Assembly: GCA_000002435.2 (NCBI GenBank)
Contig: CM018790.1
Direction: 5' to 3' (one strand)
Source of the DNA: Giardia intestinalis
Lineage: Eukaryota
Length of the DNA stretch: 64,000 nt
How positions within the stretch are numbered: the first letter of the stretch is position 1; every line of letters starts with the position of its first letter. The notes beneath the pieces were generated by a model, which saw only the letters and a list, made by a program, of their open reading frames with translations, was not told where the DNA came from and did no database searches. The translations under genes and the position numbers were made by a program. This document shows, piece after piece, positions 10,074 through 34,051 of the stretch.

Positions 10074-12347
10074 ATGCCTCCTGTTCCCAAGCCCAGTACA
10101 CAAAAACCAGCCATGGTTAGACGCAGTGCCAGTAAGTCTTACCTAGACCAACCTCAAAACTCTCAACCGCCAGCAGATGCTGTGCGTCAGCCAATTCAAC
10201 TTCGACTAACAGATAAGGAATTAGAAGAAGAGCAAACCAGGATGCTTTCGGCCAATTGTCCCAGTGCTCCAGATAATATTATTCACTTTTCATATCGTGA
10301 CAAGATGTTTAAAGCTGACGGTTTAGTTTCTCAAACAGAATTTCATATATCTGTTGACGGACCGTATCTCTTTGCTGATGAATCTTACGGATATAATAAC
10401 TACAAACAGGAAGCTAAAAAAGAGGAACTGCAAAGAAATCAGTTCAACTTTAGTAACAGAGGGACGCAAGCATCGATTCCGCTACCTAAGGATCAATCTG
10501 TGGCCACGAATCCCCCGCCATCTGAAACCACAAAAGGAGAGTTTAATCGTAGTGTTATTTATGATCGTTATAAGGAACAAAAGCGTATGCAAGCGGAGGG
10601 CGATGCTGTTGGTGGGGATGGGAAAAAAGGAAAGAGCGCTGTGATCAGACAAATAGGGGATGAGCACGACGATCCGCTGGTATTCACCTCAGGTGAAGGG
10701 CTTTCGTTGGAGACTCAAGCGCTCACCTTGCAAAAGGCTTCAGATAATTCTATTTCTGCCATATGTTCACTGAGTGCAGCAGACTTGGCTTTAGTTAGTA
10801 ATGCACTTCTACTTGCAGAGCGATTGGTGGCAGAGATCCTCTTTGCAGATGTAGTGTCAGACTACAAATTTTGGTCAGATCCATCAGACAGCTACAAGCA
10901 AGAAGGATCTTTGCTACCCCTTTGGAAATTCGCTACAAACTTTAAGGAGGTTCTGGGAATAAAAACAGTAAAGCCTGTTTCTTGCATCCAATTCCACCCG
11001 AAGTTCCACGATCTTTTCGCTGCTGCCTATGGCTCCTTTGAGTTCCAATCTACAAGCGTCTTTCCACCTTCGTGTCTCAGTGTTTTTTCTCTCAAAAATC
11101 CATTTTATCCCGAAAGAATCATTAAAACCCCCGTGGATATCCTATGCCTCGATTGGCATCCGGAGCGCTCGGACCTGCTTCTTGTTGGACTCTATGATGG
11201 TAACATAGCTATGTACAATGCGGCTGATGGTACCCAGATTGTCATTTCAGATTCATCGACTGGCAAGCACACGGAGGCTGTTTGGAGCGTCAGATGGAGA
11301 AAGGATCTTGTGGGATCTAATTCCCTTGCCTTCTTTTCTGCATCTACGGATGGGTGCATATGCTCATGGACGCTTGTTAAAACCGATCTGCGTTTAGTAA
11401 GTAAGATTGATGTCAGAGACAATATGACGGACGCAGACGTAACTCAGCCAATTTCATCAGGGAAGGATGCTGGGCTAAGTGCTCAGGCAACTACCCAAGT
11501 GACAACAACCCGTCTTCACTCGGACCCTCTTAATCCCGATTTGGCGGCTGCGTATACGTCCGCCACCGAAAAGGCAAGCAAATCTACGCTGCACACCAAG
11601 CCCCAGATTCTTATAACACAAAAGAACGATTTTGATAGCCAAAAGCGCTCGGCCGAGATTGCAAACCAAACATCTCCTACTGCAGGGATTCTCTCCATTT
11701 CCTTCAATCCGAAATACGACTGGCTCTACGCTATAAGTACTGACTCAGGTATTGTTAGACTCTGCTCCACAGCATACCACAATACATATGTGCAGACGTT
11801 CTGTCAAAATGGGCATAGTATGCCTGTGTATGGGATTTCTTGGAACACTTTTAATCCAGATCTTCTCGTCAGTTGCAGTGAGGATTTCACTTGTAAGATA
11901 TGGAAGCGTGATAGAGCAACGCCTGTGTATACAGTTGACTTTGGAAGGACAGTTTCTGATGTAACTTTCAGCCCACATGTATCCACAGAGATCATTGCAG
12001 GAACAGCAGATGGCAAGATTGTCGTGTACGACTTCAACATCCGGAAAGAAACGCCCCTGTGCATTCAGACGGCTGTCCCAATAGCTGCGCGGCTTACAAA
12101 GATAGAGCTTTCGAAGAGCTTCCCGATCATCGCTGTTGGAGACTCTCAAGGAGTTGTCCGTGTCTTCAAGCTGAGTCCCAATTTACTTAGACGCCATGTT
12201 GTCGAACAGCCAAAGGCCAGGGGGCCGAATGTCAAGACCTATACTCAGGAAGAGTTAGCTCAACTGTCTCAAGAGGGTGAGGAGCAGAAACTTGAAGAAT
12301 TTGTTCGCTGGTGCATCAAGGCAAACTCTGCATCCGGAATAGACTAG
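10074..12347 (+). CDS. Axonemal dynein intermediate chain (WD-repeat)
   Basis: It carries the N-terminal dynein-IC hallmark NQFNFSNRGTQA (NQFNFxERxxQT motif). The C-terminal half has WD40 repeats (LLLVGLYDGNIAMYN; HTEAVWSVRW; LLVSCSEDFTCKIWKRD; IAGTADGKIVVYD). The real ATG is at 10074, whereas the listed 10065 is a TTG. An A-rich initiator (aaaaaaaatttggacaaaATG) precedes it, and AGTGAAT lies 24 nt after the stop. Confidence 0.85.
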   Translation: MPPVPKPSTQKPAMVRRSASKSYLDQPQNSQPPADAVRQPIQLRLTDKELEEEQTRMLSANCPSAPDNIIHFSYRDKMFKADGLVSQTEFHISVDGPYLFADESYGYNNYKQEAKKEELQRNQFNFSNRGTQASIPLPKDQSVATNPPPSETTKGEFNRSVIYDRYKEQKRMQAEGDAVGGDGKKGKSAVIRQIGDEHDDPLVFTSGEGLSLETQALTLQKASDNSISAICSLSAADLALVSNALLLAERLVAEILFADVVSDYKFWSDPSDSYKQEGSLLPLWKFATNFKEVLGIKTVKPVSCIQFHPKFHDLFAAAYGSFEFQSTSVFPPSCLSVFSLKNPFYPERIIKTPVDILCLDWHPERSDLLLVGLYDGNIAMYNAADGTQIVISDSSTGKHTEAVWSVRWRKDLVGSNSLAFFSASTDGCICSWTLVKTDLRLVSKIDVRDNMTDADVTQPISSGKDAGLSAQATTQVTTTRLHSDPLNPDLAAAYTSATEKASKSTLHTKPQILITQKNDFDSQKRSAEIANQTSPTAGILSISFNPKYDWLYAISTDSGIVRLCSTAYHNTYVQTFCQNGHSMPVYGISWNTFNPDLLVSCSEDFTCKIWKRDRATPVYTVDFGRTVSDVTFSPHVSTEIIAGTADGKIVVYDFNIRKETPLCIQTAVPIAARLTKIELSKSFPIIAVGDSQGVVRVFKLSPNLLRRHVVEQPKARGPNVKTYTQEELAQLSQEGEEQKLEEFVRWCIKANSASGID

Positions 12348-13329: not shown

Positions 13330-15711
13330 TTACTCAGAAGTAGGTGTGGAAGTTATATTTATGACTGAGTTCCGCTCGCTGTCTGATTCCTTTTCAAAAC
13401 TTGCGCTGTCGTTAAAACGGATAATGCTTCTGCAGCTACCATTGAAATCTGATGTTGAGGTTGTGCATGAACATGTACAACTATCGCTTGACAAAGAGTC
13501 TGGGCCATTATCTAATGATGCTGATTTCAGCAGCTCTCGAGGCTGACGAAATGCATTGTGCTGAACAGACCCTGGGCTTCGAGTAGAGGATGACTTCGTA
13601 ACTGAATCGTCACTAAATTTAGTACTTGGTAACGTAATTGATGTAATTGTGTTCTTATTGCTGGACTCTTCCGGCGTCTTGCATGGTATCGGAAGTGCTT
13701 CTGAAGTGGACGTTGCTTTGTCTGTTTCAGTGTTATCCAGCAAGACTATACGCCTAGCAGTATTCATACCAGTAATAGGGGAGTCAATAGCGTCGTCACT
13801 AGACGTATTAGACGCTATTTGTTGACTGTTAGTATTATCACATTCCTCCGTTCTCTCTGGATTGTCTTCGACCAAAAGATGCTGTACACTGTTTTTCCGC
13901 TTTTTAAAGCCGGTCTCTTGCAAAGCAGGTTTAGAGTCGCGCACATCATCCTCAGGCAGACTATGGAAAGTAGCATCATCCTCTTGGTTGCAGATGTCCG
14001 TTGATGATCTGACTAAAGGATTACTCATATAAGCAAGTTGTAAACGATTCTGTGACGATAAGGTACCAACACAAGTGGCAGTAGAGACAGTAGTAGGGCC
14101 CGAAGGTGGAAGTTCTGCAGCAATACTACTCAAAGAAAGACAGCGCCTGTGAAACCCTGATTTAGATGCTGATCGCACGGTGATATCAGTTGACAGTATG
14201 GGAGAGAGGTGCATTGACACTACACTTATAGATTGTCGAGCTGAAAGAGAAGAACATGGCTCTGTTACAAGATCTTTGTTTGCCGGAGAATAGGGAACTT
14301 GAGGCTTGGGATATCGCTCCTCGAAGTCTACCCAACGCTTCACGTGCTGCAAGAAAGCAATGTCCGGCGTCATGCTCGAATAGGTTCTACATATATTAAT
14401 ATAATCGTGTACAGCCCAGAGATAGACTTTCTTTGAATAGTGATACACTAGTGCATATATACGTGACCGTGCTTCTGCAGAAAGGGAGCTTGTTTGATAC
14501 AACACATAGTCTAATAATGTTTGTGACTTATTACCCTCCATGTTTATGTGAGCGCGTTGTTGTCGTTGTTGATCGCTTGTTAATTCACCAATAGAAGAAT
14601 AACAAGCAGTATAGACATTACCCAGGTCAATGATCTGATCATCAGATGAGTGTCCCTCAAAGGAAGATCTGGTGGGAGAGCTGTCATCCTTGATCGAAAA
14701 TGCATTATTCGACGGTGTTCGCGCTAACTTGTCTGGCTTCACTGTGGGCTTGGGTATCGACTTATCATAGAGCAGCATCTGTGCAAGCCGATACTTGAGC
14801 ATGTATCCTTCATCAGTCTCTGCATGCCTGTCACACATAACCAAGAATATCGTTTCGAGTATCAGATATGATCCACTATCTATACAGTAATGCAGACAGC
14901 TTTTCCCTTCCTTAGAAAGTAGCACAAATTCATGATGTAACAGCATCAGATCCCCACTTTGCAAGATTGCAGCAGCGGCAGCAGATGCACGCATAGTGCA
15001 GAGGAGCATTAGTGCCGACATTGAGCTAGCGTTTTGCAGCTTTAGCATGGAGCTCAACTTCTTACTGTCTTTTCTCCGATCCCTGAGCCAATCAATAATG
15101 TACTTGGCCAGCTTAAAGTTTCTCCGTACTATTGCTATCATCAGAGCAGAAGACCCTTTGTCCAGAGTAAATGGTTGACTGTTGTTACTGCTTGGCGTCA
15201 TTGGGGAGCTACTAATATAGTCAAAGCGATCAGAAGACATGCAGCTTATGGAATGTATCGACAGAGTAGTACATGGTCGTAGTGACCGAAGATTTGTGTT
15301 TGTGTCAAAAATCTCAGTATGAGATACAGCGGATTGGTGAGACCAAATTTGAAGATTGCTTCTTTTTTGCTTAGTCTTTGCTTGCTTTTCGATGGGAGCA
15401 CCTGCACTGAAGTGAACACCATGAGGAGTATCCACTTCCATGGGAGTAGAATGTGAGGGTGGATAGATTAAAACGCTATACTGAGTTACTTTGTCGTATT
15501 CTAAATCGAGTAGGCTCCGAACAACATCTAAACGATCAAAATATGATGCGTAATGTAGACCCACGAATCCTTTAAAAATTGATCCGTTTCCTGACGAGGG
15601 TCGATTATCATAGATGCCCTTCTTTCGTGCCTTTAACCGCTCGACTAACGAAATGTCTCCTTGTGCACACGCCCTAAACCAATTATTACCGGATTGAGAA
15701 GAGCATGGCAT
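13330..15711 (-). CDS. Ankyrin-repeat protein of the Giardia 'Protein 21.1' type, 793 aa, with a Ser/Thr-rich C-terminal half
   Basis: It has the N-terminal module …KGFVGLHYASYFDRLDVVRSLLDLEYD… shared with the ORFs at 27099 and 32723. It contains ANK-like repeats (SALMIAIVRRNFKLAKYII… and others). It is ATG-initiated (atgccatgc). Confidence 0.78.
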   Translation of the reverse strand: MPCSSQSGNNWFRACAQGDISLVERLKARKKGIYDNRPSSGNGSIFKGFVGLHYASYFDRLDVVRSLLDLEYDKVTQYSVLIYPPSHSTPMEVDTPHGVHFSAGAPIEKQAKTKQKRSNLQIWSHQSAVSHTEIFDTNTNLRSLRPCTTLSIHSISCMSSDRFDYISSSPMTPSSNNSQPFTLDKGSSALMIAIVRRNFKLAKYIIDWLRDRRKDSKKLSSMLKLQNASSMSALMLLCTMRASAAAAAILQSGDLMLLHHEFVLLSKEGKSCLHYCIDSGSYLILETIFLVMCDRHAETDEGYMLKYRLAQMLLYDKSIPKPTVKPDKLARTPSNNAFSIKDDSSPTRSSFEGHSSDDQIIDLGNVYTACYSSIGELTSDQQRQQRAHINMEGNKSQTLLDYVLYQTSSLSAEARSRIYALVYHYSKKVYLWAVHDYINICRTYSSMTPDIAFLQHVKRWVDFEERYPKPQVPYSPANKDLVTEPCSSLSARQSISVVSMHLSPILSTDITVRSASKSGFHRRCLSLSSIAAELPPSGPTTVSTATCVGTLSSQNRLQLAYMSNPLVRSSTDICNQEDDATFHSLPEDDVRDSKPALQETGFKKRKNSVQHLLVEDNPERTEECDNTNSQQIASNTSSDDAIDSPITGMNTARRIVLLDNTETDKATSTSEALPIPCKTPEESSNKNTITSITLPSTKFSDDSVTKSSSTRSPGSVQHNAFRQPRELLKSASLDNGPDSLSSDSCTCSCTTSTSDFNGSCRSIIRFNDSASFEKESDSERNSVINITSTPTSE

Positions 15712-15775: not shown

Positions 15776-16834
15776 TTAAAGGCCATCACTAGGGATTTCA
15801 GAATCAGATAAGCTGTGGGCACCTTGGCCCTGATGCGTCTGCTTAGCGCCACCTCTCGAGAGTGTACCTGGCTCACGCAGTCGTCGCGGAAGTATCTTCT
15901 CTTCGCCTTCGCGTCGCGCAAAGTATTCGCCAGAAGCCAATTGCTGATCAACTTTTGATATTGCTGCCTCCTGCTTTTCGCGTTTACGCTTGGCAACCTT
16001 TGCTGGCTTGTAAGGCTTCGTGTTCTTCTTCTTAAACGTCGGAATAAACCTAGACCAGTCCTCGTTGGCCATCTCCGGGATCTTGGCGAGTTCTCGCTTA
16101 ATCATGAGTGTTTTGATGTGTTGAACTGGATGAATGTTCCGTTCAATGCAATCTGTGACTATATTACGCACGAGGCCAACTCCGCGACTTGCTCCCATGA
16201 CTGCAACAGTATTTCCCTGAACCTGGATCTTAGTGTCTGTGAGCAGCTCTATAGCCTTGAGTGTTTGAGCATTAGGGCCCACAAAGCGCGCTCGGCGCTT
16301 GATGAAGCTATCTTTGCGTGACGCCATGTTCTTAATCCGTATTATATCGCAATCAACCTCATTTTCGAAGCAGCGTTTAGCCTGTTCAAATGTCATTGAT
16401 CGCGAGAGCATCCAAATCATGTTTCGTGCCGACAAAATTGCGGCCGGATCCCATGTCTTGTCTGTTGTTTGAACGGTAATTGTCCCCTTCTGTAAGTCAA
16501 GCTCTGCAGCAATCCCATATTTGCTGCTCAGCATGTTAGCGAGATCCTTCCAGATACTAGTAATATACGGTTCACGGTACATTGGGAACAAGGTAGAGAA
16601 ACTAGAGACGTCGAGCAAAGCGCCTGACTTATTATCTTCCGGCCGAAACTCGGGCTCTCGCCAACCCTCGGGGACGTCAGTTCGCCCGGTCATATCCCTT
16701 TCCGGGTAGTTCCGCCTCTTTTCACGGCTAATCCGTTGGGGCTGGTCCATCTCGTCTTCCATCACTCTGCGTTGCGGTTGATGCCGGCCGACTTTTGGAG
16801 CCCTCTGGTGAAATACAAACCATTTTAAATTCAC
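15776..16834 (-). CDS. KRR1: KRR1 small-subunit processome component (KH-domain ribosome biogenesis factor)
   Basis: It aligns collinearly with Krr1: …EDNKSGALLDVSSFSTLFPMYREPYITSIW…CDIIRIKNM…RRARFVGPNAQTLKAIELLTDTKIQVQGNTVAVMGASRGVGLVRNIVTDCIERNIHPVQHIKTLMIKRELAKIP…FKKKN. The N-terminus is ~45 aa longer than yeast Krr1, so the true start could be an internal Met (aa 25, 29 or 48). Confidence 0.9.
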   Translation of the reverse strand: MNLKWFVFHQRAPKVGRHQPQRRVMEDEMDQPQRISREKRRNYPERDMTGRTDVPEGWREPEFRPEDNKSGALLDVSSFSTLFPMYREPYITSIWKDLANMLSSKYGIAAELDLQKGTITVQTTDKTWDPAAILSARNMIWMLSRSMTFEQAKRCFENEVDCDIIRIKNMASRKDSFIKRRARFVGPNAQTLKAIELLTDTKIQVQGNTVAVMGASRGVGLVRNIVTDCIERNIHPVQHIKTLMIKRELAKIPEMANEDWSRFIPTFKKKNTKPYKPAKVAKRKREKQEAAISKVDQQLASGEYFARREGEEKILPRRLREPGTLSRGGAKQTHQGQGAHSLSDSEIPSDGL

Positions 16835-17814: not shown

Positions 17815-20800
17815 TCAACCGGGGCCCCGGGATCCAGGTTGTGCCTGAACAGATGCTCGCCCAGTAGGTCGCGTGCGAGTTGTGACTTGCGGAACACTTA
17901 CGAGACGAGCATGCGTTGGGCGCTGTGCCGTTGAACGCCAGCCTGTTGAAGAAACTACGGCCCGCTGAGAGGAGCCCGGTCTCCGTGGAGCTATGAATGG
18001 CCCTGCATCTGTACTGTCAGCATTCTCACCAAAGGCTTGTTCCTTCATTACTGAAAAGCTATTCTGAGAGTACGCAAACGAATGAGATGCAGGAATTGTG
18101 CCTGCTCGTGTCTGCGAATCATCCCACACCCGCGAGCTTGTTAACCCCTTCTGGAGTCTGCTTGCTATGTTTGCAGCAACGCGGTCAACCGGAAGATCTT
18201 CTGCTGTATGGGTGACAATAGAATATGTCGCTAGACGGCTTGTTGCTTGCATTGCCTCTTGCATGTACTCTCGCTTCTCTGGCAAAATCTTATAAGGATT
18301 CTTTGCCAGTCGAGAGAAGAGATCAGCTTGTGATGTCTTACGTGTGGCCTTTTCTGTGCCTCCTCCCCAACTTGTCTTAAAGCCTTCGGTGGGAAGAATG
18401 CCTTCCGAAAAATCAGTACTGGTAAGTCCGTCAAGTGTCCGGCCACCTTGCTTACTATATTGGTCTCTACCTGAAGTACCTCGACTAGTGCGATCTTGCC
18501 GTTTACGAGTTGCATCTTGTGGTACACTGTCATGTTTAGAAGAAATCTTGGATTTGGCTTTGGACTGAGATTCCGCCTCACTGCTTTTCTGCTCTGCATT
18601 GCCTAGTTGTTCTGATGACTGATCTGTGTTAGACGTGTCAGTGACTGCAGATCTCAATGGAAGAGATTTGTAGACAAGTTTGCCGAACTTCTTGACAGAA
18701 AGGCCCACGCTTGGCCTCTCAGCTTGCTCTCTAGTGTTTATTTCACTTTCGAGAGCATTCTCGAGTTGCGCCTCATCTGTTTGAGCGGCAATGATCTCTT
18801 TGGCTAATTGCTCTATGCCTTCTGGAGAAACAGATGATCGTGATCCCGACATGGGTAATCCTGTGCCGGAGGATGAAGAGAGTCTCTTGCGTTGAGGTTT
18901 TGACTTGCTTGGATTGATAACCTCCACCTGAACGTCGTCATCAGAGCTGTGCCCGTCTTGATCCGGTTTTTGTGATTTAGATGCAGAAATACTCAGAGTG
19001 GATGGCTCTGGTAAAAGGGAAGTGATGGCTTTGACTTGCTCTATGATGTAGAGGTCTTGGTGTAGATCGTTCTCTGTGTATATGTACGGAAGAGTGATGG
19101 TCGATCCTATTGGTGGAAGATTGAGGAGAGACGGTGACAGTTCAGATGAGCCATGCGTTTCATTTATGTTGAGCTCTTTCCCCAATTCTGAGGTACAGTG
19201 CTGTGCGTTAGATGCCGTATCGACATCCATATTGAAACACACGGTCTTCTTTTTCGACGGCCCACGCTTGACAGCAGATGGAGCGGGAGTCTCTACTTCC
19301 TCCTTTGACTTATTGTCAGGTTTTTCACAGCTCCCTTCCTGTAATACATTTTCATGCACCCAGTCACAAAATTGATTATAAGTCCCAGGATCATTGAGTA
19401 CCAGTGTTCTGGAAGCATTCGGTCTGGATGCCAGTATAGATTCTGATCCGAACCATTGAATTATAAAGTTCTTTGTCTCTGCATTGTATAGAAGCGAGTA
19501 CATTTGAACAAGGAACTCATCTGCAAAATGGTGAAGAGATGCTAGCTGCTCCCCCTCTAAATAGAGCATATTTTGTGCAAGATCCCGGCCAACCTCAAGG
19601 AAGTCCTTCTGACACATTTGTAGGCCAAATTTGGGGCTTCCAGCCTTTGTTATCCCCCCAAATGTGGTCTCTATGCAATAGGAACGCTGGATATGAAAGC
19701 TGTTGTATGACACAGCACGTTGTGTGCACTCCTTTTGCTTTCCAATCGAATATCTGCAATCCTTTATGCTAAAATATGGCGACAGCCTATTCAAAGCTTT
19801 AAAATAAAAGTGCTCTTCGCTGTCTCCGTAGCATGCATAGCCAAAGACATTTGTCTTACGAGAATGACCATGTAGATCTATGTTTGCTAAGATGGCCTTA
19901 TTTGTTATAACAGTGGCTCTATTCTCAGAGCTAACTGTGCTTGCACCAGACACATTGTCTATTCGTTTTGTTGATGGCTTGCAAGTTGCTGGCCGTGTCT
20001 GGGGACCAGATTTTGGCTGCCTCGGTGGCTTGATGCAGGCATCGTCCGCCACCACTAAATCATTGAAAGCAAGGTCTTCTGTTTGCCCTGAACAGGTCTG
20101 ATAGAGGTGTTTTCCATGAGCTTTCTCTACACAATCTTTTGAGCCCGAACTATCGAAGCTACTGGAGCTACCAGCGCTGTCAGAGCGCTGCTGCTCACAC
20201 TGAGTGGTGCTCTTTATCAAGCTACCAGATGGACAAGACACAAGTGAGAGGAGAACCTTTTTAAAGCCATAGACACATGTGTGCAGTGCCATAGATGGCT
20301 GTACACACCGCCGATTAAGATCTGCGCCAGCTAGGTTACACCGGTAATTTCCTAATATAACTCCATCTGGGTTGATCATTGGGAAAACCTTAAAGACATA
20401 TAGTTTGCGCAGCAGACATGCTATCGGGGCATCAGAGAGCAGATAGTCAACAAGCCCCTGACAGACATAGCTGGATTGTGCTTCGCCAGGGTGAATCCTT
20501 GCAGATACTACTACAATCTTTCGAGCCTTTAGTTCCTGCATTGAAGTGGATGAGGATGTAATCGTAAGCATGTCGACATCGTTTCCCCCTATCGATTTGG
20601 TAACAACCTTATGGCTAAGAATAGGTATGTCTATGTTCTTGTGATCTGCCGAAGCCAGAAGCTTGGCCACGATCTGGTAGTTTGGACTGCTCCTAAAAGC
20701 AGCTAGCTTTTGTAAAAACTTGACCTTCAGACGAGAATAAGCGTAGTATGCCTTTGCAAATTCTAGCGTATATGCCTTATCCAAAGATGATAGGCCTCCT

Positions 20801-22530
20801 CCCTCGACCGCGTTATCTTGTGGTAAACTGTCCAGCTCACTATCCAACAGCAATGCCTTATTAAGGGCAGCAGTTAAACGATTATTAATATGACGGCGTT
20901 GCAACATATTCTTATGAATCAAGGAGTTGATCCAGAGTTGTTCATGCTCGTAGGTGTAGGGATATGTGTGTGCAAAATAGACAATATCTCCCGCATATTT
21001 GAAAATGTAACTGAACGAAAGTGTGTAGTAGCTCCCAAGAAGGCAGGAAACAGGTTTTACATCGGGGCCTGCATTGGTATCTGTCTTTTGTGGCACTTTC
21101 GAAGTGGCAGGCGCCTGAGAGTCGTCTTGGGAGTCGTCATAATCGGAGTTCTTTGTTTTCTTATCTTGAACAGGAGTAGTTAATGAACCTGAATCTGCAT
21201 TTAGATACCGGCTATTTGAATAGTAAGCTACATCAAAGCCGCCCCTCTCCCAGCCCCGACCGGAGAGCATGTACTCTGTTTCACTAAATATAACCGGTGA
21301 CATGCCATCAGAATACTGAGAGGACGTCTTGGTGAAGTTAGCGATGAAGAAATTGTATCTAATTCCTGGAATTGTGTTTCCGACGGCAAAATAATACCAC
21401 TGGGTGTTTCCCGTTGAGTTGGTGTCTGGTCTAAGCATAAGAAAGTAGGTCTGATCCGCAGCACAGTACTTGGCGGTGACACCAGTAGCATTTGTTATGT
21501 ATTCTGTCTTGTAAGGAAACAAATCTGACTCTGGAGTTCCCATCTCCGTACACATTGGCAGTCTAGTTGCCTGCAGTAGGTTCCCACTCTCAAACCGAGA
21601 CTCAAAGCGCAGTGTAGTATCTGTTAGTGCCTGAAAGGTAGTGCTCTCTACATCACCAGTTTCTGGGCGTAAATTGTTAGGTAATAAGCTTGAATAAAGA
21701 AAGCCGTGGGCGCGTTCGTGTGCGTGCGCTTTAGCCCATTTCTTACAGGTAATAGAGTGTTCTGCTGAAAGAGAGGTGTCGATTAAAGCAAAGATTCCTG
21801 GAAATGCACTTACTGTATCTATGGCTGTCTCCGGAATGGATGCAGCCTCCTCTTTATGAGGTTGATGATGCTCTATACCCTGGTCAGTCAGGGATGACTT
21901 TGGACGGGGTGCTTCAGCATTGAAAACAGATGAATAGATAATTGAGACGGATGAATGTGTAAGATCGTAGAGCTTGTTCTGAGCACGCATGGTGCTAAGG
22001 TTAAGGGGATACCACCACTGATATGTATGCATGTTTTGGGGCTGACCAGGATGGTTGAGAGTGTCGTTTGGCTTTGTGGCTTCAGCTGCCTCGGTAGTCA
22101 CGGACGAATAAGGCCTTCTATAGTGATATACACAAACCCCTTTCTGCAGCCGATAATGGATTTGTTGAGCGCGCGTTAAATTTGCTACGGAAAGACAACC
22201 ACAGGGACACTTAAGATCTAGAGAGTAGTTTATAGATGGTTCTCGCTGAGATACCTCAGGCTTAGATTTGGCCATAGGCTTCGATTTGGTCTCGGGAAGT
22301 ATTAAGGGTTGACTGGTATCGTCCAGCTCCACGTGTATAAGAGGCTTCTTGTCTTGGTACTTGAATCCACAGTAGGAAATGGTAATGTCCTTCGGCCTGG
22401 AGCCCACATCATAAAGTGCATCGGGGGGAGGAGGCAGCTCCTTGACGGTACGAAGATGCTGAGAAATAATCGTCGAGAACTCCGTGTAGTTTTTCACTGT
22501 GACTTTCCTTAAGGCGGCATTTCCTTCCAT
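17815..22530 (-). CDS. Cytosolic carboxypeptidase (Nna1/CCP/AGBL family, M14 zinc carboxypeptidase), a likely tubulin deglutamylase, 1571 aa
   Basis: The N-domain motif [16 protein letters not shown] (FESGNL) is present. The M14 catalytic motifs are in order: [15 protein letters not shown] (HxxE zinc ligands), [44 protein letters not shown], and CIETTFGG (catalytic Glu, cf. LESTF). It is ATG-initiated (ATGGAAGGAAAT). Confidence 0.9.
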   Translation of the reverse strand: [1571 protein letters not shown]

Positions 22531-22595: not shown

Positions 22596-25500
22596 TCACA
22601 TAGATGGTAGACCTGGGGTAGCTGCGCACTTAATACATATGGCATGTAGTGCAAAGAACAGCGTTCTAATTGGGGTTATCATATTATAACCTTTCGAGCT
22701 TTCCACTGCAATCCCCTGCATATCTGAGAAGGCAGAATTGACTAATGAAGTAAAATCTTGGATACCAAGAGCCTGAACTGCTTCTAGAACCTGAAGGCGA
22801 AAGATGTCTTGGCGGAACTGCAGCCCCGCCACAGAAATATCTTCTATATCGACAAAAACAACGTGTAGAAGTGCAGCAGCCAAATCAGAGATAAGATCTT
22901 CGTCCTGGACGGTTGAGAAAACGCAGCAAATAAGCTTACCGATAGATTTCTCAATGACTTGCACGTAGGCCCGGTTAACCTGCTCCAGTTGATCAGAGTG
23001 CACATAGCTGCCAAGGAGAGCATTGACAAAGGTGGCTATGCAGCCAAACAATTTTATCTTTAAAGACACGTGCGTCGGCGACAGGTTATCTAGAAAATCA
23101 CAGAGAGCGGTTAGCATACGCGTTGCTTCCTCTTGCTCAAGGGTATCATTGCTCAAATTTAGGATCATTGTGATCATATCTACCATTTTTGTAATGTCAT
23201 GGTCGTCTACATGATTCAGGATTGGGGTAAAGCTAAGGATAATATTCAGAACATTTGAAAACAGGTGAGAAATAAAGCTCTTGTAATCATCGCCCCGGAG
23301 CGTCAGCAAAGAAGGAATATAATTTGTTATTTCGTACAACATATCTACGGCTACCACAGACGCAGCAAGAAATACCAAATACAGTTGCTCATGGCCAGAG
23401 AAGGCAACAGACGTCACATCTTCCCCCGAGTAAACGTGCTGCAAGCTAGAGCATCGCTCGGAAGAAACGCTAGCCCAGTCCATGGTAGTTTGAAGGCTAC
23501 GACACAGAAGTCCGAAGGAAGAATCAATTAGCCGCTTGAAGAAGGACGCTACTTGCGAACCTATGCATTTAAGCCACTTATCTATTGTGATCTTCGCAAA
23601 AAGAAAGATGTCCCTCACCAGAAACATAGCTGACAGTATGTAATTGGTTCCATTGGGCAAGGCCTCAAGGTAAGGCAGAACCACATCATATGCAGCAAAG
23701 ACCTTGTTCAGAAAAGCATTCTTTAGCCCAGCGCAGTCGTCGATGCTCATATTTTCTAATGCTGCCAGCCCGCCAGCGGAAGCAGACAGAAGAAGTGTTA
23801 GAATCTCTATTATCAAGCAAGGGTTAGTCGTCAATTTCTGGGCTCCTGCTGTTGCCACTACGGACAGTAGGGAATCAACATAAGCAGTGAGATGAAAGGT
23901 CTCGTCCGGTCTTACATGCTCGATGAGGAGACTACTAAAGGTTAAGACGTTACTTTTGTATTTGAGAAGAAAATTGGTGAAGTCGCAAGTACTAGCAACA
24001 GGAACTTCTCTGCACATCGTGTCCAATTTCTTAATAGCTCTCAAGACAACGTCCAAAGGAAAAGCTGGCCTCTTCTTTACGATGTTCATGGCGTCAATGC
24101 ATAGCAAAAGAGTGGAGATAATGGCATCATTTAGGAAGAGCGTAGAAAGATGAACATGCCCAGGAGAGTCGTGGACGCTCCCTATGCACTTTAACACAGC
24201 AATAATTGCTTCGGATATGGCTGCACACGAGGCTGCACTCAGGCATTCGCTATAACTGGTCGCACACTCACTGTCGTAAAGCATGTACTGTACCCACTGA
24301 ATGGCTATCTGAGTATAGAAGCATGCTCTAACCACAGTACCCCAATCACATTCGCCAGAAAGTCCACGAGCAATCAAGCAAATGGCGGTTGACGCCAGCC
24401 TACACTGCTGCGAGATAAGCATCTCTGTCGGTGCCATGCAAAGATAAATCGGCTGCGCGCCTACAAACTCCTCTTCGTTAAATGAAAATAGCTCGTCACG
24501 TATGCCAAAGAAGAGAACAGAATTCAACACTACGATTGCTAGGTTACTGTCCAGTTTGGATGGGTCAGCTAAGGGGAGCGCGTTGCCGTCACGTATCCTC
24601 TCAAATATGGCACTCTCTTGGCAGAATCGTACAAAGCTAAAGCGCGCTGGGTCATTATTCTCTGGCATAAAGCAGTAGCGTACAGCCGTATGTAGATTGA
24701 TAGAGAAGTCACGAATTAATTGAACGCAATTATTACTGCATTTTTGCACATTGTACAGCCTCATATTTCGTGGAGTCGGCTCCTTATTAACCAGCAGATC
24801 CAAACAGCTAGCCATATATATCTGTATCTGGGAAATATAAAGGGCTGCAGAAGTCACAGAGTATATTAACAATAAGAACGAGTTAAGTGTCAGTACAAGG
24901 GAAGAGTTTTGCGCATTGCCTGATGAGACCAGATTAAGCGACGGGCCAATGATACAGGCTTGGTAGCTGGCATGAACTATAGACATCAAGGAGCTGAGAT
25001 AAGAAACAATAAAGCCCAGTTCTTGAGATACGGTCATATGCACAAAAAAGATAGTGAACGAGAATTGACAGAGTAGCTTTGTCAACTGATTTTTGTTTAG
25101 TATAGAAAGCATGGTCACAGGACCATTGGCGAGAATCAGAGACTGTATGATTTGCAGCGGGAAAAAATCATCTTCGGGATTGTGGGGAATATTGAACCAT
25201 GTGTTAGAGCAAAAGAAATTGCCAGCTATAACAATAGGATTGTATTCAGAAGGTCTGTATTCAGAGATAGACGCGCCAAGATCAAGCTCAAGTGTAGCCA
25301 TCTCCAGCCTGGACAAAATGTCCTCTTCATCCATTCTAGACAGCTGAAACTGATAGAAGCGTATCAAAAGGGCGATAACAAACATGCAAATAATACTGGA
25401 GGATTTGGCCTTGCTGTAGGTAACCGTCGCTAATGCAAAGAACAACTCTTGGCAGCAACTATAGACTAACTCATCCTTCCTCAAAAAAGCTAGAAGAAAT

Positions 25501-26261
25501 AGTTTCGCAGACCTACTATACCATGCAGTTTCTAATAAGTTCAATAACTCTGGCAAAGGCTTAGCTTGTGTGTCAAAGAAAGCATCGTCGGAATTAGTAG
25601 AAAAGGCCGGGCAGGTCTTGCTGAGTGCTCCCCACTTAACGGAGATGGTTATGATCTTCAGATGGGCAATGATGAAAACTTGGTGATTGCCTTCATTAAA
25701 CTTTGGGGCAGTATTGGAGGTGCAATAGGCGTCCATAAGGCGGTCTAGAGAGTCCAGTACGTGGTTAACTAGCTTGATGACAGACTCTCTGATTACTGTA
25801 TCTTGTGCAGCAACCTGCTTGGCAACGGCGGCGGTAGCAATATGGAACAAAAGGTCTTCAACTACACTAAGTAAAAAAGGGACTTCTGTGAAACGCTCGG
25901 TAATAAGCACTGTGCAGAAAGTGTGAATTTCATCTGACGAAAAACAGGCCGGAACAACAAACGCTACAAGTTTAGAAAGCGTCTTCACGGCGATCCCCGT
26001 TGCCAAAAGCGTCCTTCCTGCATCGAGCAAACGTGGCACGTAAGCCTTAAGAGTGTGATAAAGCGAGGGTTTAGCTGTTCCCGCTGTAACAAGCAAGTTA
26101 AGACCATGAAAGACAAAAATGTCCTTCGACTGTAGAGAGTCTAAAAGGACGCTAGAGAACGCAAGATAATATGTCGGGTCCTGTAGAGCCGCCTGGATTT
26201 GTGTAAGTCCGGAATAGTCCCCTTTGGAGGCAGAGTCTACAGCAGACTCCAGCTCTTCCAT
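22596..26261 (-). CDS. Large (1221 aa) predominantly alpha-helical hypothetical protein, possibly HEAT/ARM-repeat and karyopherin-like. No diagnostic motif found.
   Basis: A long uninterrupted ATG-initiated ORF with leucine-rich amphipathic helical composition throughout. The karyopherin/exportin suggestion is inference from size and composition only. Confidence 0.6.
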   Translation of the reverse strand: MEELESAVDSASKGDYSGLTQIQAALQDPTYYLAFSSVLLDSLQSKDIFVFHGLNLLVTAGTAKPSLYHTLKAYVPRLLDAGRTLLATGIAVKTLSKLVAFVVPACFSSDEIHTFCTVLITERFTEVPFLLSVVEDLLFHIATAAVAKQVAAQDTVIRESVIKLVNHVLDSLDRLMDAYCTSNTAPKFNEGNHQVFIIAHLKIITISVKWGALSKTCPAFSTNSDDAFFDTQAKPLPELLNLLETAWYSRSAKLFLLAFLRKDELVYSCCQELFFALATVTYSKAKSSSIICMFVIALLIRFYQFQLSRMDEEDILSRLEMATLELDLGASISEYRPSEYNPIVIAGNFFCSNTWFNIPHNPEDDFFPLQIIQSLILANGPVTMLSILNKNQLTKLLCQFSFTIFFVHMTVSQELGFIVSYLSSLMSIVHASYQACIIGPSLNLVSSGNAQNSSLVLTLNSFLLLIYSVTSAALYISQIQIYMASCLDLLVNKEPTPRNMRLYNVQKCSNNCVQLIRDFSINLHTAVRYCFMPENNDPARFSFVRFCQESAIFERIRDGNALPLADPSKLDSNLAIVVLNSVLFFGIRDELFSFNEEEFVGAQPIYLCMAPTEMLISQQCRLASTAICLIARGLSGECDWGTVVRACFYTQIAIQWVQYMLYDSECATSYSECLSAASCAAISEAIIAVLKCIGSVHDSPGHVHLSTLFLNDAIISTLLLCIDAMNIVKKRPAFPLDVVLRAIKKLDTMCREVPVASTCDFTNFLLKYKSNVLTFSSLLIEHVRPDETFHLTAYVDSLLSVVATAGAQKLTTNPCLIIEILTLLLSASAGGLAALENMSIDDCAGLKNAFLNKVFAAYDVVLPYLEALPNGTNYILSAMFLVRDIFLFAKITIDKWLKCIGSQVASFFKRLIDSSFGLLCRSLQTTMDWASVSSERCSSLQHVYSGEDVTSVAFSGHEQLYLVFLAASVVAVDMLYEITNYIPSLLTLRGDDYKSFISHLFSNVLNIILSFTPILNHVDDHDITKMVDMITMILNLSNDTLEQEEATRMLTALCDFLDNLSPTHVSLKIKLFGCIATFVNALLGSYVHSDQLEQVNRAYVQVIEKSIGKLICCVFSTVQDEDLISDLAAALLHVVFVDIEDISVAGLQFRQDIFRLQVLEAVQALGIQDFTSLVNSAFSDMQGIAVESSKGYNMITPIRTLFFALHAICIKCAATPGLPSM

Positions 26262-27098: not shown

Positions 27099-28493
27099 AT
27101 GAACATTTGTTCCAGGCCCAGGAAATCCGGGGCTGCCCGGGGAGCAGATCCATCGTGGTTTTCCGCGTGCTCGGATAATAAAACAGACGTCGTCAAGGCC
27201 CAATTAGGTAAATGCAAGAGGTCATTTGACAGACGCGACACAGACTTCAACGTCAAGGTTTACAAGGGGTTCTCTGGTCTCCATTATGCTTGTATGACTG
27301 GAGCCCTCAATGTGGTAACGACGCTCCTAGAGTATGAATATGATCTCTATACTCAGGTTGAAGCCGTCCTCACGATGGCAACAATGTCTTCAGGAGATAC
27401 GAAATTCAAGTGTGCAGCTGGAACTTCGCCTCTTATGATCGCAATAATATCAGGTAACATGGATGTGGCTCTTACCATCTTGAACTTTGCCAGTTCAAAG
27501 GGGGAAGATGTTCTCAAGCGTATGGTGGGCATTCAGAATGAGCGAGGCCAAACTGCTCTTATGTGCTTCTGCATGATAGATTCTACTAACGTATTAACGT
27601 TTTTGTATGCACACCAAAAGCTTCTTATGCGCTACGAGATAGGCGCTGAGACGATAGAAGGCCTTACGGCCCTCCAGATTGCAGCTACCTTCGGGAGAAA
27701 TTATGTGCTTGACAGTGTTTGTAAGACTCTTCTAAAATTGGACACGTCGAGTCTTTCAGATTTAGAGTTTAAGATGGATTTTGTTAAGGCTCTGCTGAAA
27801 CGCGATAGATCTGGACGCGATATTTTTTATTATGTTGAGAATACAGTCCAATATGAGCACTTTTCAACAAGCCTCCAAAACAAGCAAGCATGCAAAGTCA
27901 CCCTGCTGTCAGTCTTCAAGGACGTGGTTTTGTGGCTGATCACAAACCCTGTAGAGAAGGCCAAAGAGCTTATCAACTCGGGAACTCGTGTAGATTATTC
28001 GGTGTGCTATTTAAATGACGCCTTAATAATTAATGCCACTAATGAGGACTTCTTTATTAACAGTAAGATGACAACCGATCAACGGGTGCTGGACTTGGCT
28101 AATAAGCTGGATTGTTATGTTAATTGTTGTCAGTTATTGAACCAGAATCCTGATGAGATTCTCTTGGGAATAGCCAGAACATACTTAGATGAAAACGGAA
28201 ACCTTGTTATTAAGCCGGACCTCTCTGTAGTACCCGCGGCTATATTCGGTCAACAAGAAGCCGGACAAGATCGGGCAAATATAAGGCATGTTCGGCAGGA
28301 AAGCGGGCTGTCTACTGCCTCGGAAGATAGTCACACTATGAGTAGCTTTGATATCATTAGGAATGCAACTAGTCACAGACTGTACTTGAACGAAAATGGG
28401 ATGCTGGTGCTCCAGAGTCCACAAGGAAACGATATTTCGCTTAATGCCAGTTGCATCAGCCACCATCAGACTATAGACGATTTAGATAGCTAA
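27099..28493 (+). CDS. Ankyrin-repeat protein (Protein 21.1-like paralog), 464 aa
   Basis: N-terminal module …KVYKGFSGLHYACMTGALNVVTTLLEYEYDLYTQ…, ANK repeat (TSPLMIAIISGNMDVALTILNF…), and a CxC/Cys-containing C-terminal region. My own base count around the ATG differed by 1 nt from the track, so I use the track coordinates. Confidence 0.8.
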   Translation: MNICSRPRKSGAARGADPSWFSACSDNKTDVVKAQLGKCKRSFDRRDTDFNVKVYKGFSGLHYACMTGALNVVTTLLEYEYDLYTQVEAVLTMATMSSGDTKFKCAAGTSPLMIAIISGNMDVALTILNFASSKGEDVLKRMVGIQNERGQTALMCFCMIDSTNVLTFLYAHQKLLMRYEIGAETIEGLTALQIAATFGRNYVLDSVCKTLLKLDTSSLSDLEFKMDFVKALLKRDRSGRDIFYYVENTVQYEHFSTSLQNKQACKVTLLSVFKDVVLWLITNPVEKAKELINSGTRVDYSVCYLNDALIINATNEDFFINSKMTTDQRVLDLANKLDCYVNCCQLLNQNPDEILLGIARTYLDENGNLVIKPDLSVVPAAIFGQQEAGQDRANIRHVRQESGLSTASEDSHTMSSFDIIRNATSHRLYLNENGMLVLQSPQGNDISLNASCISHHQTIDDLDS

Positions 28494-32722: not shown

Positions 32723-34051
32723 ATGTGTTGCGGTGGGAAGAAGGACGACCTCGCCAACTGGATAAAGGCGGCGTCCACCGGCAACTTGACTGTTATAAAC
32801 AAACAACTCTCGAAGATGAAGGGGAAGCGTGATACAAGGGCAACCAACACGGATGGTAGCATCTTCAATAGCTTTACCGCCATGCACTACGCTTGCTACT
32901 TTAACCATCTGCAGGTTGTCCAGAAGCTTTTTGACTTTGAATATATGATTAAGACTGGGGACACTGTCAGGATTAAGTCCAAGTTCAGTTCTGCAGATGT
33001 AGAGATGAACCTCGGCAAAGATTCTACTCCTCTCATGATTGCCATTGCACGCGGAAGCATCCCGGTCGCGAAGTTCCTCCTTGAAAAGGCCAGTACTAGC
33101 GGCGGCGCCGTCTCCCGACAGATTCTTGGAGTTAGCAATGCATCAGGTCTTACGGCCCTTGGAATGGCCTGCTCTTCAGCAAACAAGGAGATGATCGACC
33201 TCATTCTCTTAAAGGACGCCGTGCTTCTTAAGACGGAACTCCACATGACGGCCGTCACGGGAACGAATGCAATACATCACCTGGCCTTGTTTGCGCGCAC
33301 AGAGGTCTTCGACAAGCTTACTAAATATATCTTTGACTCCGCTGAGACATCTCCGGAGAATAAGAAGCTTCGCATACAGTTCGTGGAGAAGCTCATGAGC
33401 AGGGACTCAAACCAGAACAGTGTCTTCGACATGGTCTATCAGAAAGCCATTGGCAAGAAGTTTGGGGTGACTGATGATCACAAGGATGCTATGTATAAAT
33501 CGCTTAGGACGATGGTGAGACGCGTGTATATCTGGGCGCTTCAGCTTAAGCACAACGAACTGGAGATCGCCAACGGCTTCCTGGGTGCCCCGTATGAAGA
33601 GATCTGCAAAGATGTGAGTCACGAGGTTAGTAAGGAGTTCCTTGAACGGTGCACAAAGGCCAGTACAGACCCAGAGACAGACGACACGTTGTATTTGATG
33701 CAGCAGCTGATTGATCAGTACTCTTCCAGCGTTAGCGTCAAGACTACGTCCCCTGTGCAGGAGGCCATGGAGTCTAGCCAGATATCGAGGAAGAGCGTGA
33801 GCAACAAGCCCATATCTACCACGGCCTCAGCTGTCGAATCTACGCGTGCGTCCCAGGCGCTTGAGGAGGGCTCGAAGACTGTTACGGGCCAAGCTTCCTC
33901 TGGAGATTACGAGAATATCCTCGTTGATAGTGCAGAAATTCCGTCGCACACCCCACAGGTAACTGGTACTGTTGAGACCGCTCAGCCCACCGAGACGATC
34001 GAAGATTCACTAGTCATCGATCCAACCGTGCTACCGCCGAGCCTAGCTTAG
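32723..34051 (+). CDS. Ankyrin-repeat protein (Protein 21.1-like paralog), 442 aa
   Basis: N-terminal module …FNSFTAMHYACYFNHLQVVQKLFDFEYMIKT…, ANK repeats (STPLMIAIARGSIPVAKFLLEKA; LTALGMACSSANKEMIDLIL), and a Ser/Thr-rich C-terminus. Confidence 0.8.
   Translation: MCCGGKKDDLANWIKAASTGNLTVINKQLSKMKGKRDTRATNTDGSIFNSFTAMHYACYFNHLQVVQKLFDFEYMIKTGDTVRIKSKFSSADVEMNLGKDSTPLMIAIARGSIPVAKFLLEKASTSGGAVSRQILGVSNASGLTALGMACSSANKEMIDLILLKDAVLLKTELHMTAVTGTNAIHHLALFARTEVFDKLTKYIFDSAETSPENKKLRIQFVEKLMSRDSNQNSVFDMVYQKAIGKKFGVTDDHKDAMYKSLRTMVRRVYIWALQLKHNELEIANGFLGAPYEEICKDVSHEVSKEFLERCTKASTDPETDDTLYLMQQLIDQYSSSVSVKTTSPVQEAMESSQISRKSVSNKPISTTASAVESTRASQALEEGSKTVTGQASSGDYENILVDSAEIPSHTPQVTGTVETAQPTETIEDSLVIDPTVLPPSLA

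What the first reader, a model, noticed from the sequence alone, without database searches (positions are those of the whole stretch)
17815..22530. Nna1/CCP-type tubulin deglutamylase with an ~90-aa Ser-rich insertion inside the catalytic domain and a ~450-aa Ser/Thr-rich low-complexity tail
All M14 catalytic residues are present (HPGE, NPDG…GNYR, HGHS, IETTF). The spacing between the NRR substrate-binding motif (about aa 741) and the HGHS zinc ligand (about aa 888) is ~145 aa instead of the usual ~60. The extra segment (about nt 19920–20270) is Ser/Cys-rich. The C-terminal third (about nt 17815–19230) is S/T/Q-rich and likely disordered or phosphoregulated. A flagellated organism with eight axonemes relies heavily on the tubulin polyglutamylation code. 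This gene sits 5 kb from an axonemal dynein IC and among ankyrin '21.1' cytoskeletal proteins.
Basis: partly seen in the sequence, partly recalled or inferred. Interest (0 to 1): 0.5.

Follow-up and report, generated by a model that had tools for sequence, protein, structure and literature searches.

The report
Annotated Giardia cytosolic carboxypeptidase, floppy insertions
This is the already-annotated Giardia homologue of the Nna1/CCP enzymes that trim glutamates from tubulin; the extra stretch inside its catalytic domain is real, but it looks like a fast-evolving disordered loop at a site where human CCP5 also carries a long loop, so the finding is largely ordinary.

Summary
The ORF 17815-22530 (-) is real. 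It encodes 1571 aa and is identical to XP_001706233.1 / UniProt A8BM27, "Nuclear ATP/GTP-binding protein" (the old Nna1 name) of Giardia intestinalis WB. All CCP-type M14 residues are present: H680/E683/H887 (zinc), R730, N739/R740, E954, and the acidic-specificity pair K933/R938.

The insertion is real and larger than stated. The NR-to-HGH spacing is 148 aa, against 33-43 (mode 37) in 136 of 141 nearest cluster representatives, which gives about 110 extra residues (aa 766-875).
- It is one of four diplomonad-specific insertions.
- It is present but variable (93-150 aa spacing) in every diplomonad orthologue found.
- It is the least conserved segment (51% identity to assemblage B against 85-90% in the flanks; dN/dS 0.28 against 0.03-0.05).
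- AlphaFold2 pLDDT is about 30.
- Human CCP5 has an independent ~86-aa loop at the same site, replaced by a GS linker in crystallised constructs.

A "lid" role is therefore not supported.

The tail is S/T/Q-enriched and mostly predicted disordered, but it is not low-complexity. Its last 171 aa are the most constrained part of the protein (dN/dS 0.02).

The protein groups with CCP1-4, not CCP5.

Verdict: known gene, known family, ordinary lineage-specific decoration.

The parts
17815..22530 (-). Complete ORF, 1571 aa. It is identical to XP_001706233.1 / A8BM27, 'Nuclear ATP/GTP-binding protein', Giardia intestinalis WB.
21631..22530 (-). N-terminal region, aa 1-300. It is conserved only among diplomonad orthologues and has no TPR_CCP1_N domain. 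It contains a CxCxC...H...CxxH pattern at aa 105-138.
20953..21630 (-). CCP N-domain (beta-sandwich; FESRFESGNL 309-318, YPYTY 523). It is interrupted by insertions I1 (aa 327-355, nt 21466-21552) and I2 (aa 448-493, nt 21052-21189).
   Evidence: pLDDT 76-96 outside the insertions
20656..20952 (-). Insertion I3, aa 527-625, between the N-domain and the carboxypeptidase domain. It is predicted as long helices with pLDDT 55-78.
19531..20655 (-). M14 carboxypeptidase domain, aa 626-1000. Key residues: H680, E683, R730, N739, R740, H887, H889/R891/K892, K933, R938, E954.
   Evidence: residue roles from PMC4230590
19906..20235 (-). Insertion I4, aa 766-875. This is the insertion of the finding. It is Ser-rich, has pLDDT of about 30, dN/dS 0.28, and is the least conserved segment.
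17818..19230 (-). C-terminal tail, aa 1101-1571. It is S/T/Q-enriched and mostly predicted disordered.
18661..18990 (-). Conserved tail block, aa 1181-1290. It holds the SSDDD acidic motif, a basic KPQRKR stretch, a predicted helix at 1236-1271 and a beta-hairpin at 1276-1288. dN/dS is 0.07.
17818..18330 (-). Conserved basic C-terminal block, aa 1401-1571. Net charge is +9 and dN/dS is 0.02, the most constrained segment of the gene.

Best explanation
The gene encodes the Giardia (diplomonad) orthologue of the cytosolic carboxypeptidase (CCP/Nna1) family. The protein has a CCP-type beta-sandwich N-domain followed by a zinc M14 carboxypeptidase domain.

Shown: the fold-level architecture and every catalytic and specificity residue are conserved.
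- Zinc is held by H680, E683 and H887.
- E954 is the general base.
- R730, N739 and R740 bind the substrate C-terminus.
- K933 and R938 (CPA positions 250 and 255), together with the basic HGHSRK stretch, make the S1'/S1-S3 pockets positively charged.

Inferred: the enzyme should remove C-terminal acidic residues, most plausibly glutamates from polyglutamate side chains or from the ends of tubulin tails.

The ~110-aa segment in the catalytic domain (aa 766-875) is a clade-specific, rapidly evolving, intrinsically disordered surface loop. It sits between the helix that follows the NR motif and the strand that leads to H887. It is one of four such insertions and is probably not needed for catalysis. 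At most it carries short linear motifs: an acidic Ser-rich patch followed by a basic KPPRQPK...CKPSxKR patch.

The long tail is mostly disordered. It carries two strongly constrained modules, and the basic C-terminal module is the best candidate for targeting or microtubule binding (inferred).
For: - Identity: the protein is an exact match to the annotated Giardia WB protein.
- Family: Pfam M14. The best solved-structure matches by sequence are human CCP5 and bacterial CCPs, and the N-domain aligns as well.
- Model: the AlphaFold2 model has 431 of 721 residues at pLDDT >= 70. Its best Foldseek hits are CCP5 (E = 1e-31, TM on target 0.70-0.74) and bacterial CCPs (TM 0.77-0.81).
- Residues: catalytic and specificity residues are invariant in the 47-sequence alignment. 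They map to the roles given in PMC4230590; HGHSRK is identical to the hCCP3 H462/R464/K465 pattern.
- Insertion is real and clade-wide: spacing is 148-150 aa in G. intestinalis assemblages, 101 in G. muris, and 121 and 93 in two unnamed diplomonad-like sequences, against 37 elsewhere.
- Insertion is disordered and relaxed: pLDDT about 30; 51% identity to assemblage B and 15% to G. muris while the flanks keep 85-90% and 62%; dN/dS 0.28 against 0.03-0.05; 5 of 23 within-assemblage substitutions fall in it.
- Precedent: human CCP5 spacing is 123 aa (H252 and H434 in 8v3q), and the loop is replaced by SGSGGSG in 8v3m. Only 501 of the 605 residues of 8v3q are modelled.
- Tail: pLDDT 40; dN/dS is 0.07 for aa 1181-1290 and 0.02 for aa 1401-1571.
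Against: - No enzymatic, localisation or knock-down data for this protein were found in the searchable literature. Activity and substrate are therefore inferred from conservation only.
- dN/dS of the insertion is below 1, and two short patches are kept within the G. intestinalis complex. The loop is thus not entirely unconstrained and may have a regulatory or binding role.
- AlphaFold2 low confidence is only indirect evidence of disorder. The tail model used only 7 sequences.
- I had no model coordinates, so the position of the loop relative to the active site is inferred from secondary-structure topology, not measured.
Confidence: 0.8

Rival explanations
1. The insertion aa 766-875 is a functional regulatory element, such as an autoinhibitory lid or phospho-switch that gates access of tubulin tails to the active site.
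For: - An insertion is kept at this site in all diplomonad orthologues.
- dN/dS is 0.28, below 1.
- An acidic Ser-rich patch (QRSDSAGSSSSFDSSGSKD) and a basic patch (KPPRQPK...RPxTCKPSxKR) are conserved among G. intestinalis assemblages.
- An acidic phospho-Ser patch could in principle mimic a glutamate-rich tubulin tail in the basic substrate groove (inference).
Against: - Length and sequence are not conserved beyond the G. intestinalis complex (15% identity to G. muris, 46 gap positions).
- It has the lowest conservation and the highest dN/dS of all segments.
- pLDDT is about 30 with no predicted secondary structure.
- It is one of four insertions of similar character.
- The analogous CCP5 loop could be replaced by a GS linker and the protein still crystallised with transition-state analogues bound (entry titles).
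Confidence: 0.15
2. The protein is a CCP5 orthologue (branch-point deglutamylase), because it shares CCP5's hallmark long loop between the NR motif and the HGH motif.
For: - The best solved-structure hit is human CCP5.
- The insertion site is the same.
- There is also an insertion after FESGNL in both proteins.
Against: - CCP5 is the only eukaryotic CCP in the PDB hit lists, so 'best hit' is not discriminating.
- A CCP2-like protein (P0009) scores higher against CCP5 (139 bits) than the Giardia protein does (112 bits). The Giardia protein scores 200-225 bits against CCP2-like/CCP1-4-type proteins.
- The NJ tree places diplomonads with the CCP1-4 group, excluding CCP5 and the Diplonema sequence, in 99.5% of bootstraps.
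- Signature motifs (FESRFESGNL, GNTQWYYF, HGHSRK) are of the CCP1-4 type.
Confidence: 0.05
3. The 'insertion' is not protein. It is an unspliced intron or an assembly or annotation artefact.
For: Giardia does have a few introns, and the segment is compositionally distinct.
Against: - The segment is in frame without stops in six independent lineages with different lengths.
- The identical protein is seen on 33 contigs.
- dS in the segment (0.33) is comparable with the rest of the gene, and dN/dS is below 1.
- No Giardia-type branch/3' splice motif lies in nt 19906-20235. The 6 window matches against 4.2 expected by chance all lie elsewhere.
Confidence: 0.02
4. The enzyme is active, but its main substrate is not polyglutamylated tubulin. 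It may act on other acidic-tailed proteins, or, less likely, on polyglycine chains, which are abundant in Giardia.
For: - Mammalian CCPs also act on non-tubulin substrates and on gene-encoded acidic C-termini (PMC4230590).
- No tubulin deglycylase is known. The only known deglycylases are the Giardia M20 enzymes acting on 14-3-3 (PMC4230590).
Against: - R938 and K933 (positions 255 and 250) predict acidic, not glycine, specificity.
- CCP2 and CCP3, once considered deglycylase candidates, were shown to be deglutamylases (PMC4230590).
Confidence: 0.1

Closest known systems
Metazoan and protist CCP1-4-type cytosolic carboxypeptidases (AGBL2/CCP2, AGBL3/CCP3, AGTPBP1/Nna1/CCP1)
   Same: - The N-domain plus M14 architecture is the same.
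- FESRFESGNL, GNTQWYYF, YPYTY, HPGE, NPDGV, GNYRC, DLNR, DLHGHSRK, KExTxRV and E-[AT]-[TS]-F motifs are shared.
- Identity is 35-40% over the ~428-aa canonical core.
- An acidic Ser/Asp patch followed by basic residues lies downstream of the catalytic domain.
- The tree groups the protein with this set.
   Different: - About 293 extra residues lie in four insertions inside the core (721 against 428 aa).
- The N-terminal 300 aa and the C-terminal 470 aa are diplomonad-specific.
- There is no TPR_CCP1_N domain, so the architecture is not CCP1/4-like.
- Placement between CCP1/4 and CCP2/3 is unresolved (47% bootstrap for sister to both).
Human CCP5 (AGBL5; PDB 8v3m-8v3s, 8v4k-m)
   Same: - It is the best structural match.
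- It carries a long, largely unmodelled loop at exactly the same site. NR-to-HGH is 123 aa, and the loop is replaced by a GS linker in 8v3m.
- It also has an insertion after the FxSGNL strand of the N-domain.
   Different: - The sequence is more distant (112 bits against 200-225 bits for the CCP1-4 type).
- The tree excludes it.
- The loops share no detectable similarity, so the insertions are most likely independent (inference).
Bacterial CCPs (Pseudomonas aeruginosa 4a37, Burkholderia 3k2k/4b6z, Shewanella 3l2n)
   Same: The two-domain fold is the same, with TM-score on target 0.76-0.81.
   Different: They are minimal ~380-aa proteins without any of the insertions, N-terminal region or tail.

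Membership tests
M14 metallocarboxypeptidases (Pfam PF00246) | HxxE ... H zinc triad and catalytic Glu (CPA H69, E72, H196, E270) | tested here: met
   H680, E683, H887 and E954 are invariant in 47-sequence alignment A3. Pfam E = 4e-24, 86 bits against a cut-off of 21.6.
M14 metallocarboxypeptidases (Pfam PF00246) | Substrate C-terminus anchoring residues (CPA R127, N144, R145) | tested here: met
   R730, N739 and R740 are invariant.
Cytosolic carboxypeptidase (CCP/Nna1) subfamily M14D | CCP-specific beta-sandwich N-domain with the FESGNL motif directly upstream of the carboxypeptidase domain | tested here: met
   FESRFESGNL lies at 309-318. phmmer aligns aa 307-414 to the CCP5 N-domain. AlphaFold2 strands have pLDDT 76-96. 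Foldseek covers both domains of CCP5 and bacterial CCPs. The Pfam PF18027 model itself does not reach threshold, probably because insertion I1 splits it.
Cytosolic carboxypeptidase (CCP/Nna1) subfamily M14D | Basic S1' pocket: Arg at CPA position 255 and Lys/Arg at position 250, giving acidic specificity (PMC4230590) | tested here: met
   R938 is invariant, and K933 lies five residues upstream in KECTQR.
Cytosolic carboxypeptidase (CCP/Nna1) subfamily M14D | Deglutamylase activity on tubulin or other glutamylated proteins | not testable with these tools
   No experimental report was found for this protein.
CCP1/CCP4 (Nna1 proper) | N-terminal TPR/ARM-like domain (Pfam PF25571 TPR_CCP1_N) | tested here: not met
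   There is no Pfam hit at E <= 1 outside PF00246. The N-terminal region of the CCP1-like P0055 finds only P0269 and P0213, not the diplomonad proteins.
CCP5 | Phylogenetic grouping with CCP5 | tested here: not met
   NJ bootstrap of 99.5% separates CCP5 plus the Diplonema sequence from diplomonads plus the CCP1-4 type. This is an NJ tree only, with one CCP5 reference.
CCP5 | Long loop between the NR and HGH motifs | tested here: met
   148 aa here against 123 aa in human CCP5. The loop is shared in position only, not in sequence.
CCP2/CCP3 | Phylogenetic grouping with vertebrate AGBL2/AGBL3 | tested here: inconclusive
   The nearest named hits are CCP2/3-like. In the tree, diplomonads branch outside both the CCP1-like and CCP2/3-like sets, with 47% support.

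The most novel reading that the evidence does not exclude
The diplomonad CCP has acquired lineage-specific modules that adapt a generic deglutamylase to Giardia's unusual microtubule organelles.
- The ultra-conserved basic C-terminal block (aa 1401-1571, dN/dS 0.02) would act as a microtubule- or axoneme-targeting domain.
- The helical I3 insertion would act as an oligomerisation or docking element.
- The Ser-rich acidic patch of I4 would act as a phospho-regulated pseudo-substrate that occupies the basic substrate groove.
Probability: 0.15. Interest if true: 0.45.

Novelty: already known. Interest (0 to 1): 0.2.

Why it matters
Giardia depends on eight axonemes, a ventral disc and a median body, all built from heavily modified tubulin. 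The enzymes that erase polyglutamylation there have not been studied, as far as the searchable literature shows. This gene is an obvious candidate eraser and would be a reasonable target for tagging or knock-down.

Large disordered insertions at this loop are precedented in human CCP5, and long disordered tails are common in CCPs.

The one point that could guide experiments is that the extreme C-terminus, not the catalytic-domain insertion, is the non-catalytic part under the strongest constraint.

Tried and rejected
- Literature: searches for any study of this Giardia protein gave only passing mentions of Giardia. The CCP5 structure paper (Chen et al., Nature 2024) and the CCP phylogeny paper (Rodriguez de la Vega Otazo 2013) are not held. 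Statements about the CCP5 loop therefore rest on PDB sequences and entry titles only.
- Third homologue search, on tail aa 1181-1571: it returned no hit at all, not even the orthologues. The candidate list was probably swamped by Ser-rich words, so the result is uninformative.
- Intron hypothesis: no Giardia branch/3' splice motif lies in the insertion.
- CCP5 orthology: rejected by score comparison and by the tree.
- Length polymorphism of the insertion within assemblage A: none. Length differences among cluster members are start-codon calls or truncations.
- Giardia CCP paralogues: none appeared. Those lists show only the best matches, so this is not a test.
- Distance from the insertion to the zinc site: I could not measure it because model coordinates are not exposed.
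Full report
**Observation**

The window carries one uninterrupted ORF at 17815-22530 on the minus strand, encoding 1571 aa. Pfam finds a single family, Peptidase_M14, over aa 628-983 (E = 4e-24). The exact protein is in public databases as XP_001706233.1 / KAE8302244.1 / UniProt A8BM27. There it is called 'Nuclear ATP/GTP-binding protein' (the historical name of Nna1/AGTPBP1) of Giardia intestinalis ATCC 50803 (WB). Other isolates annotate it as 'Metallocarboxypeptidase, M14 family protein'. The gene and its family assignment are therefore already annotated.

**Is the insertion real?**

Yes.
- In all close non-diplomonad relatives returned by the first search, the distance from the N of the NR motif to the first H of HGH is 37 aa. 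HxxE-to-NR is a constant 59 aa.
- In the exhaustive phmmer search of 1.84 billion cluster representatives, 6420 hits had E < 1e-3. Of the 150 best, 136 of 141 scorable have 33-43 aa.
- The exceptions are this protein (148), Giardia muris (101), two unnamed diplomonad-like sequences from Logan assemblies (P0006, 121; P0166, 93) and one unrelated sequence (P0268, 68).
- An alignment of trimmed cores places it at aa 766-875 (nt 19906-20235). This lies between the helix that follows the NR motif (VYGFKKVLLSL) and the strand ILANIDLHGHS.

The same alignment shows that this is only one of four diplomonad-specific insertions:
- I1, aa 327-355, in the N-domain.
- I2, aa 448-493, in the N-domain.
- I3, aa 527-625, between the two domains.
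- I4, aa 766-875, in the catalytic domain.

The canonical core is about 428 aa; here it is 721 aa.

**Nature of the insertion**

- Composition is S 17.3% and C 5.5%, against 9.4% and 2.1% in the other large ORFs of the window.
- Conservation by segment: I4 keeps 84%, 51%, 50% and 15% identity to assemblage E, assemblage B, another Giardia lineage and G. muris. The flanking catalytic halves keep 94-96%, 85-90%, 82-87% and 62%.
- Using the assemblage E (P15) gene DNA (L001), Nei-Gojobori dN/dS is 0.28 for I4, the highest of all segments. The catalytic flanks give 0.05 and 0.03, and the whole gene gives 0.11.
- Within assemblage A, 5 of the 23 substitutions between the window and P0001 fall in I4, and there are no indels.
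- An AlphaFold2 model of aa 296-1016, built with a 47-sequence alignment, gives pLDDT above 90 for most of both domains. It gives about 30 with no secondary structure for core residues 486-580, which are aa 781-875. I1 and I2 are also below 50. I3 is modelled as long helices at pLDDT 55-78.
- Two short patches are kept among G. intestinalis assemblages: an acidic Ser-rich one (QRSDSAGSSSSFDSSGSKD) and a basic Pro-rich one (KPPRQPK...RPxTCKPSxKR). G. muris keeps only the general character.
- No Giardia-type intron signal lies in the segment. It also stays in frame in six lineages with different lengths, so it is translated sequence.

**Precedent**

- The best solved-structure matches are human CCP5 entries.
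- The PDB holds two CCP5 chain sequences, of 605 aa (8v3q and others) and 524 aa (8v3m and others).
- In the longer chain, HPGE starts at 252 and HGH at 434. With the constant 59-aa offset, NR-to-HGH is 123 aa, about 86 aa more than canonical.
- In the shorter chain the same place reads ...LLYHHVSGSGGSGVAYYVDLHGH. The native loop was replaced by a Gly-Ser linker, and those constructs were solved with transition-state analogues bound (entry titles).
- Only 501 of the 605 residues of 8v3q are modelled.
- A Diplonema CCP (P0057) has 88 aa at this site.

The loop between the NR helix and the HGH strand is thus a recurrent site for long insertions in the family, and these appear to be disordered.

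**Position relative to the active site (inference)**

In the model, the N-terminal anchor is the end of a 15-residue helix that starts shortly after N739/R740. The C-terminal anchor is the start of a 10-residue strand that carries H887 near its far end. Both anchors therefore lie roughly 20-30 Å from the zinc site, on the opposite edge of the sheet. A 95-residue flexible loop could still reach the cleft, but it is not placed as a lid. I could not measure this because coordinates are not exposed.

**What the protein is**

- Catalytic and binding residues are invariant in the 47-sequence alignment: H680, E683, R730, N739, R740, H887, H889, R938, E954.
- According to PMC4230590, Arg at CPA position 255 and Lys/Arg at position 250 set acidic specificity in all six mammalian CCPs. 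The same paper states that positions 198, 200 and 201 (H462, R464, K465 in hCCP3) shape the basic S1-S3 subsites.
- Here these residues are R938, K933, and H889/R891/K892, in an identical HGHSRK motif.
- The N-domain is present: FESRFESGNL, an alignment to the CCP5 N-domain, and confident beta-strands.
- The most likely activity is therefore zinc-dependent removal of C-terminal glutamates (deglutamylation). This is inferred, not shown. No experimental paper on this protein was found.

**Subfamily**

- The Giardia protein scores 200-225 bits against CCP2-like/CCP1-4-type proteins and 112 bits against human CCP5. A CCP2-like control (P0009) scores 139 bits against CCP5.
- A profile search returned vertebrate AGBL2 and AGBL3 among the best named hits, although that profile was dominated by CCP2-like sequences.
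- The protein lacks the TPR_CCP1_N domain that marks CCP1-like proteins.
- I built an NJ tree on 362 core columns. The human CCP5 sequence was reconstructed from the printed alignments, and three TPR-bearing CCP1-like sequences were included.
- In that tree, diplomonads are monophyletic (100%). They group with the CCP1-4 set to the exclusion of CCP5 and the Diplonema sequence (99.5%). Their position relative to the CCP1-like and CCP2/3-like clades is unresolved (sister to both in 47%).
- 'Nna1/CCP-type' is correct. 'CCP5 orthologue' is rejected. CCP1/4 against CCP2/3 remains open.

**Tail**

- Aa 1101-1571 has S+T+Q at 30% against about 20% background, but only 7% of residues lie in low-entropy windows.
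- AlphaFold2 on aa 957-1571, with 7 sequences, gives mean pLDDT 40. A helix at aa 1236-1271 (~70) and a hairpin at 1276-1288 are the only moderately confident elements.
- Conservation is mosaic. Aa 1181-1290 (SSDDD acidic motif, KPQRKR, helix, hairpin) has dN/dS 0.07. Aa 1401-1571 (net charge +9) has dN/dS 0.02, with 4 non-synonymous against 46 synonymous differences. That is the lowest in the gene.
- A few anchors (SxDD, LATY, PRRP) persist in all diplomonad sequences.
- 'Likely disordered' is therefore supported, while 'low-complexity' is not. The C-terminal block is a better candidate functional add-on than I4.
- A search for homologues of the tail elsewhere returned nothing, not even the orthologues, and is uninformative.

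**Context**

- 10065-12347 (+) is an orthologue of outer-arm dynein IC1/IC78 (E = 3e-93).
- Ankyrin-repeat ORFs lie at 13330-15711, 27099-28493, 32723-34051 and 34139-36982.
- The immediate neighbours are KRR1 (15776-16834), ribosomal protein L5 (16867-17760) and a 1221-aa protein without Pfam domains (22596-26261). The same neighbours flank the gene in assemblage E.
- Nothing indicates functional clustering.

**Verdict**

The family assignment is right and already annotated. The proposed special role of the insertion is not supported. It behaves as a fast-evolving disordered loop at a site where such loops recur in the family. Interest is low. The only mildly new point is the strong constraint on the basic C-terminal block.

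Noticed in passing
window 17818-18330 (-), aa 1401-1571 of the CCP: The last 171 aa are the most constrained segment of the whole gene between assemblages A and E: dN/dS 0.02, with 4 non-synonymous against 46 synonymous differences. This holds although the segment is basic (+9), S/T/R/P-rich and predicted disordered. It has no Pfam family.
   Followed up: partly
window 22117-22218 (-), aa 105-138 of the CCP: A CxCxC...H...CxxH pattern (LKCPCGC...HYRLQKGVCVYHYR) is kept in G. muris and in the diplomonad-like P0006. It may be a small zinc-binding knuckle in the diplomonad-specific N-terminal region.
   Followed up: no
window 20656-20952 (-), aa 527-625 of the CCP: Insertion I3, between the N-domain and the catalytic domain, is predicted as a pair of long helices (pLDDT 55-78). 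The other three insertions are predicted disordered.
   Followed up: no
window 37736-57955 (-): An uninterrupted 6739-aa ORF has no Pfam match at E <= 1e-5 in either part scanned.
   Followed up: partly
window 10065-12347 (+): A 760-aa WD40 protein is a clear orthologue of axonemal outer-arm dynein intermediate chain 1 (DNAI1/IC78), E = 3e-93 to chains in solved axoneme structures.
   Followed up: yes
window 34139-36982 (+): A 947-aa protein has many ankyrin repeats plus a C-terminal C3HC4 RING finger. It is a putative ankyrin-repeat E3 ligase among the '21.1'-type ankyrin genes.
   Followed up: no
window 22596-26261 (-): The 1221-aa upstream neighbour of the CCP gene has no Pfam family at E <= 0.001. 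The same gene precedes the CCP in assemblage E (L001).
   Followed up: no
PDB chains 8v3m/8v3q (human CCP5), seen: The deposited CCP5 sequences read Ala (YTLACNY) at the position aligned with the catalytic Glu (E954 here). This is presumably an inactivating mutation used for substrate complexes. The 524-aa construct replaces the native loop with SGSGGSG.
   Followed up: partly
P0165 (2168 aa) and P0167 (1509 aa) from the representative library: Each predicted protein contains three or four tandem CCP units (repeated FESGN/YPY/NPDG motifs), several lacking HPGE or HGH. They are either fused tandem gene copies or gene-model artefacts in some eukaryote.
   Followed up: no
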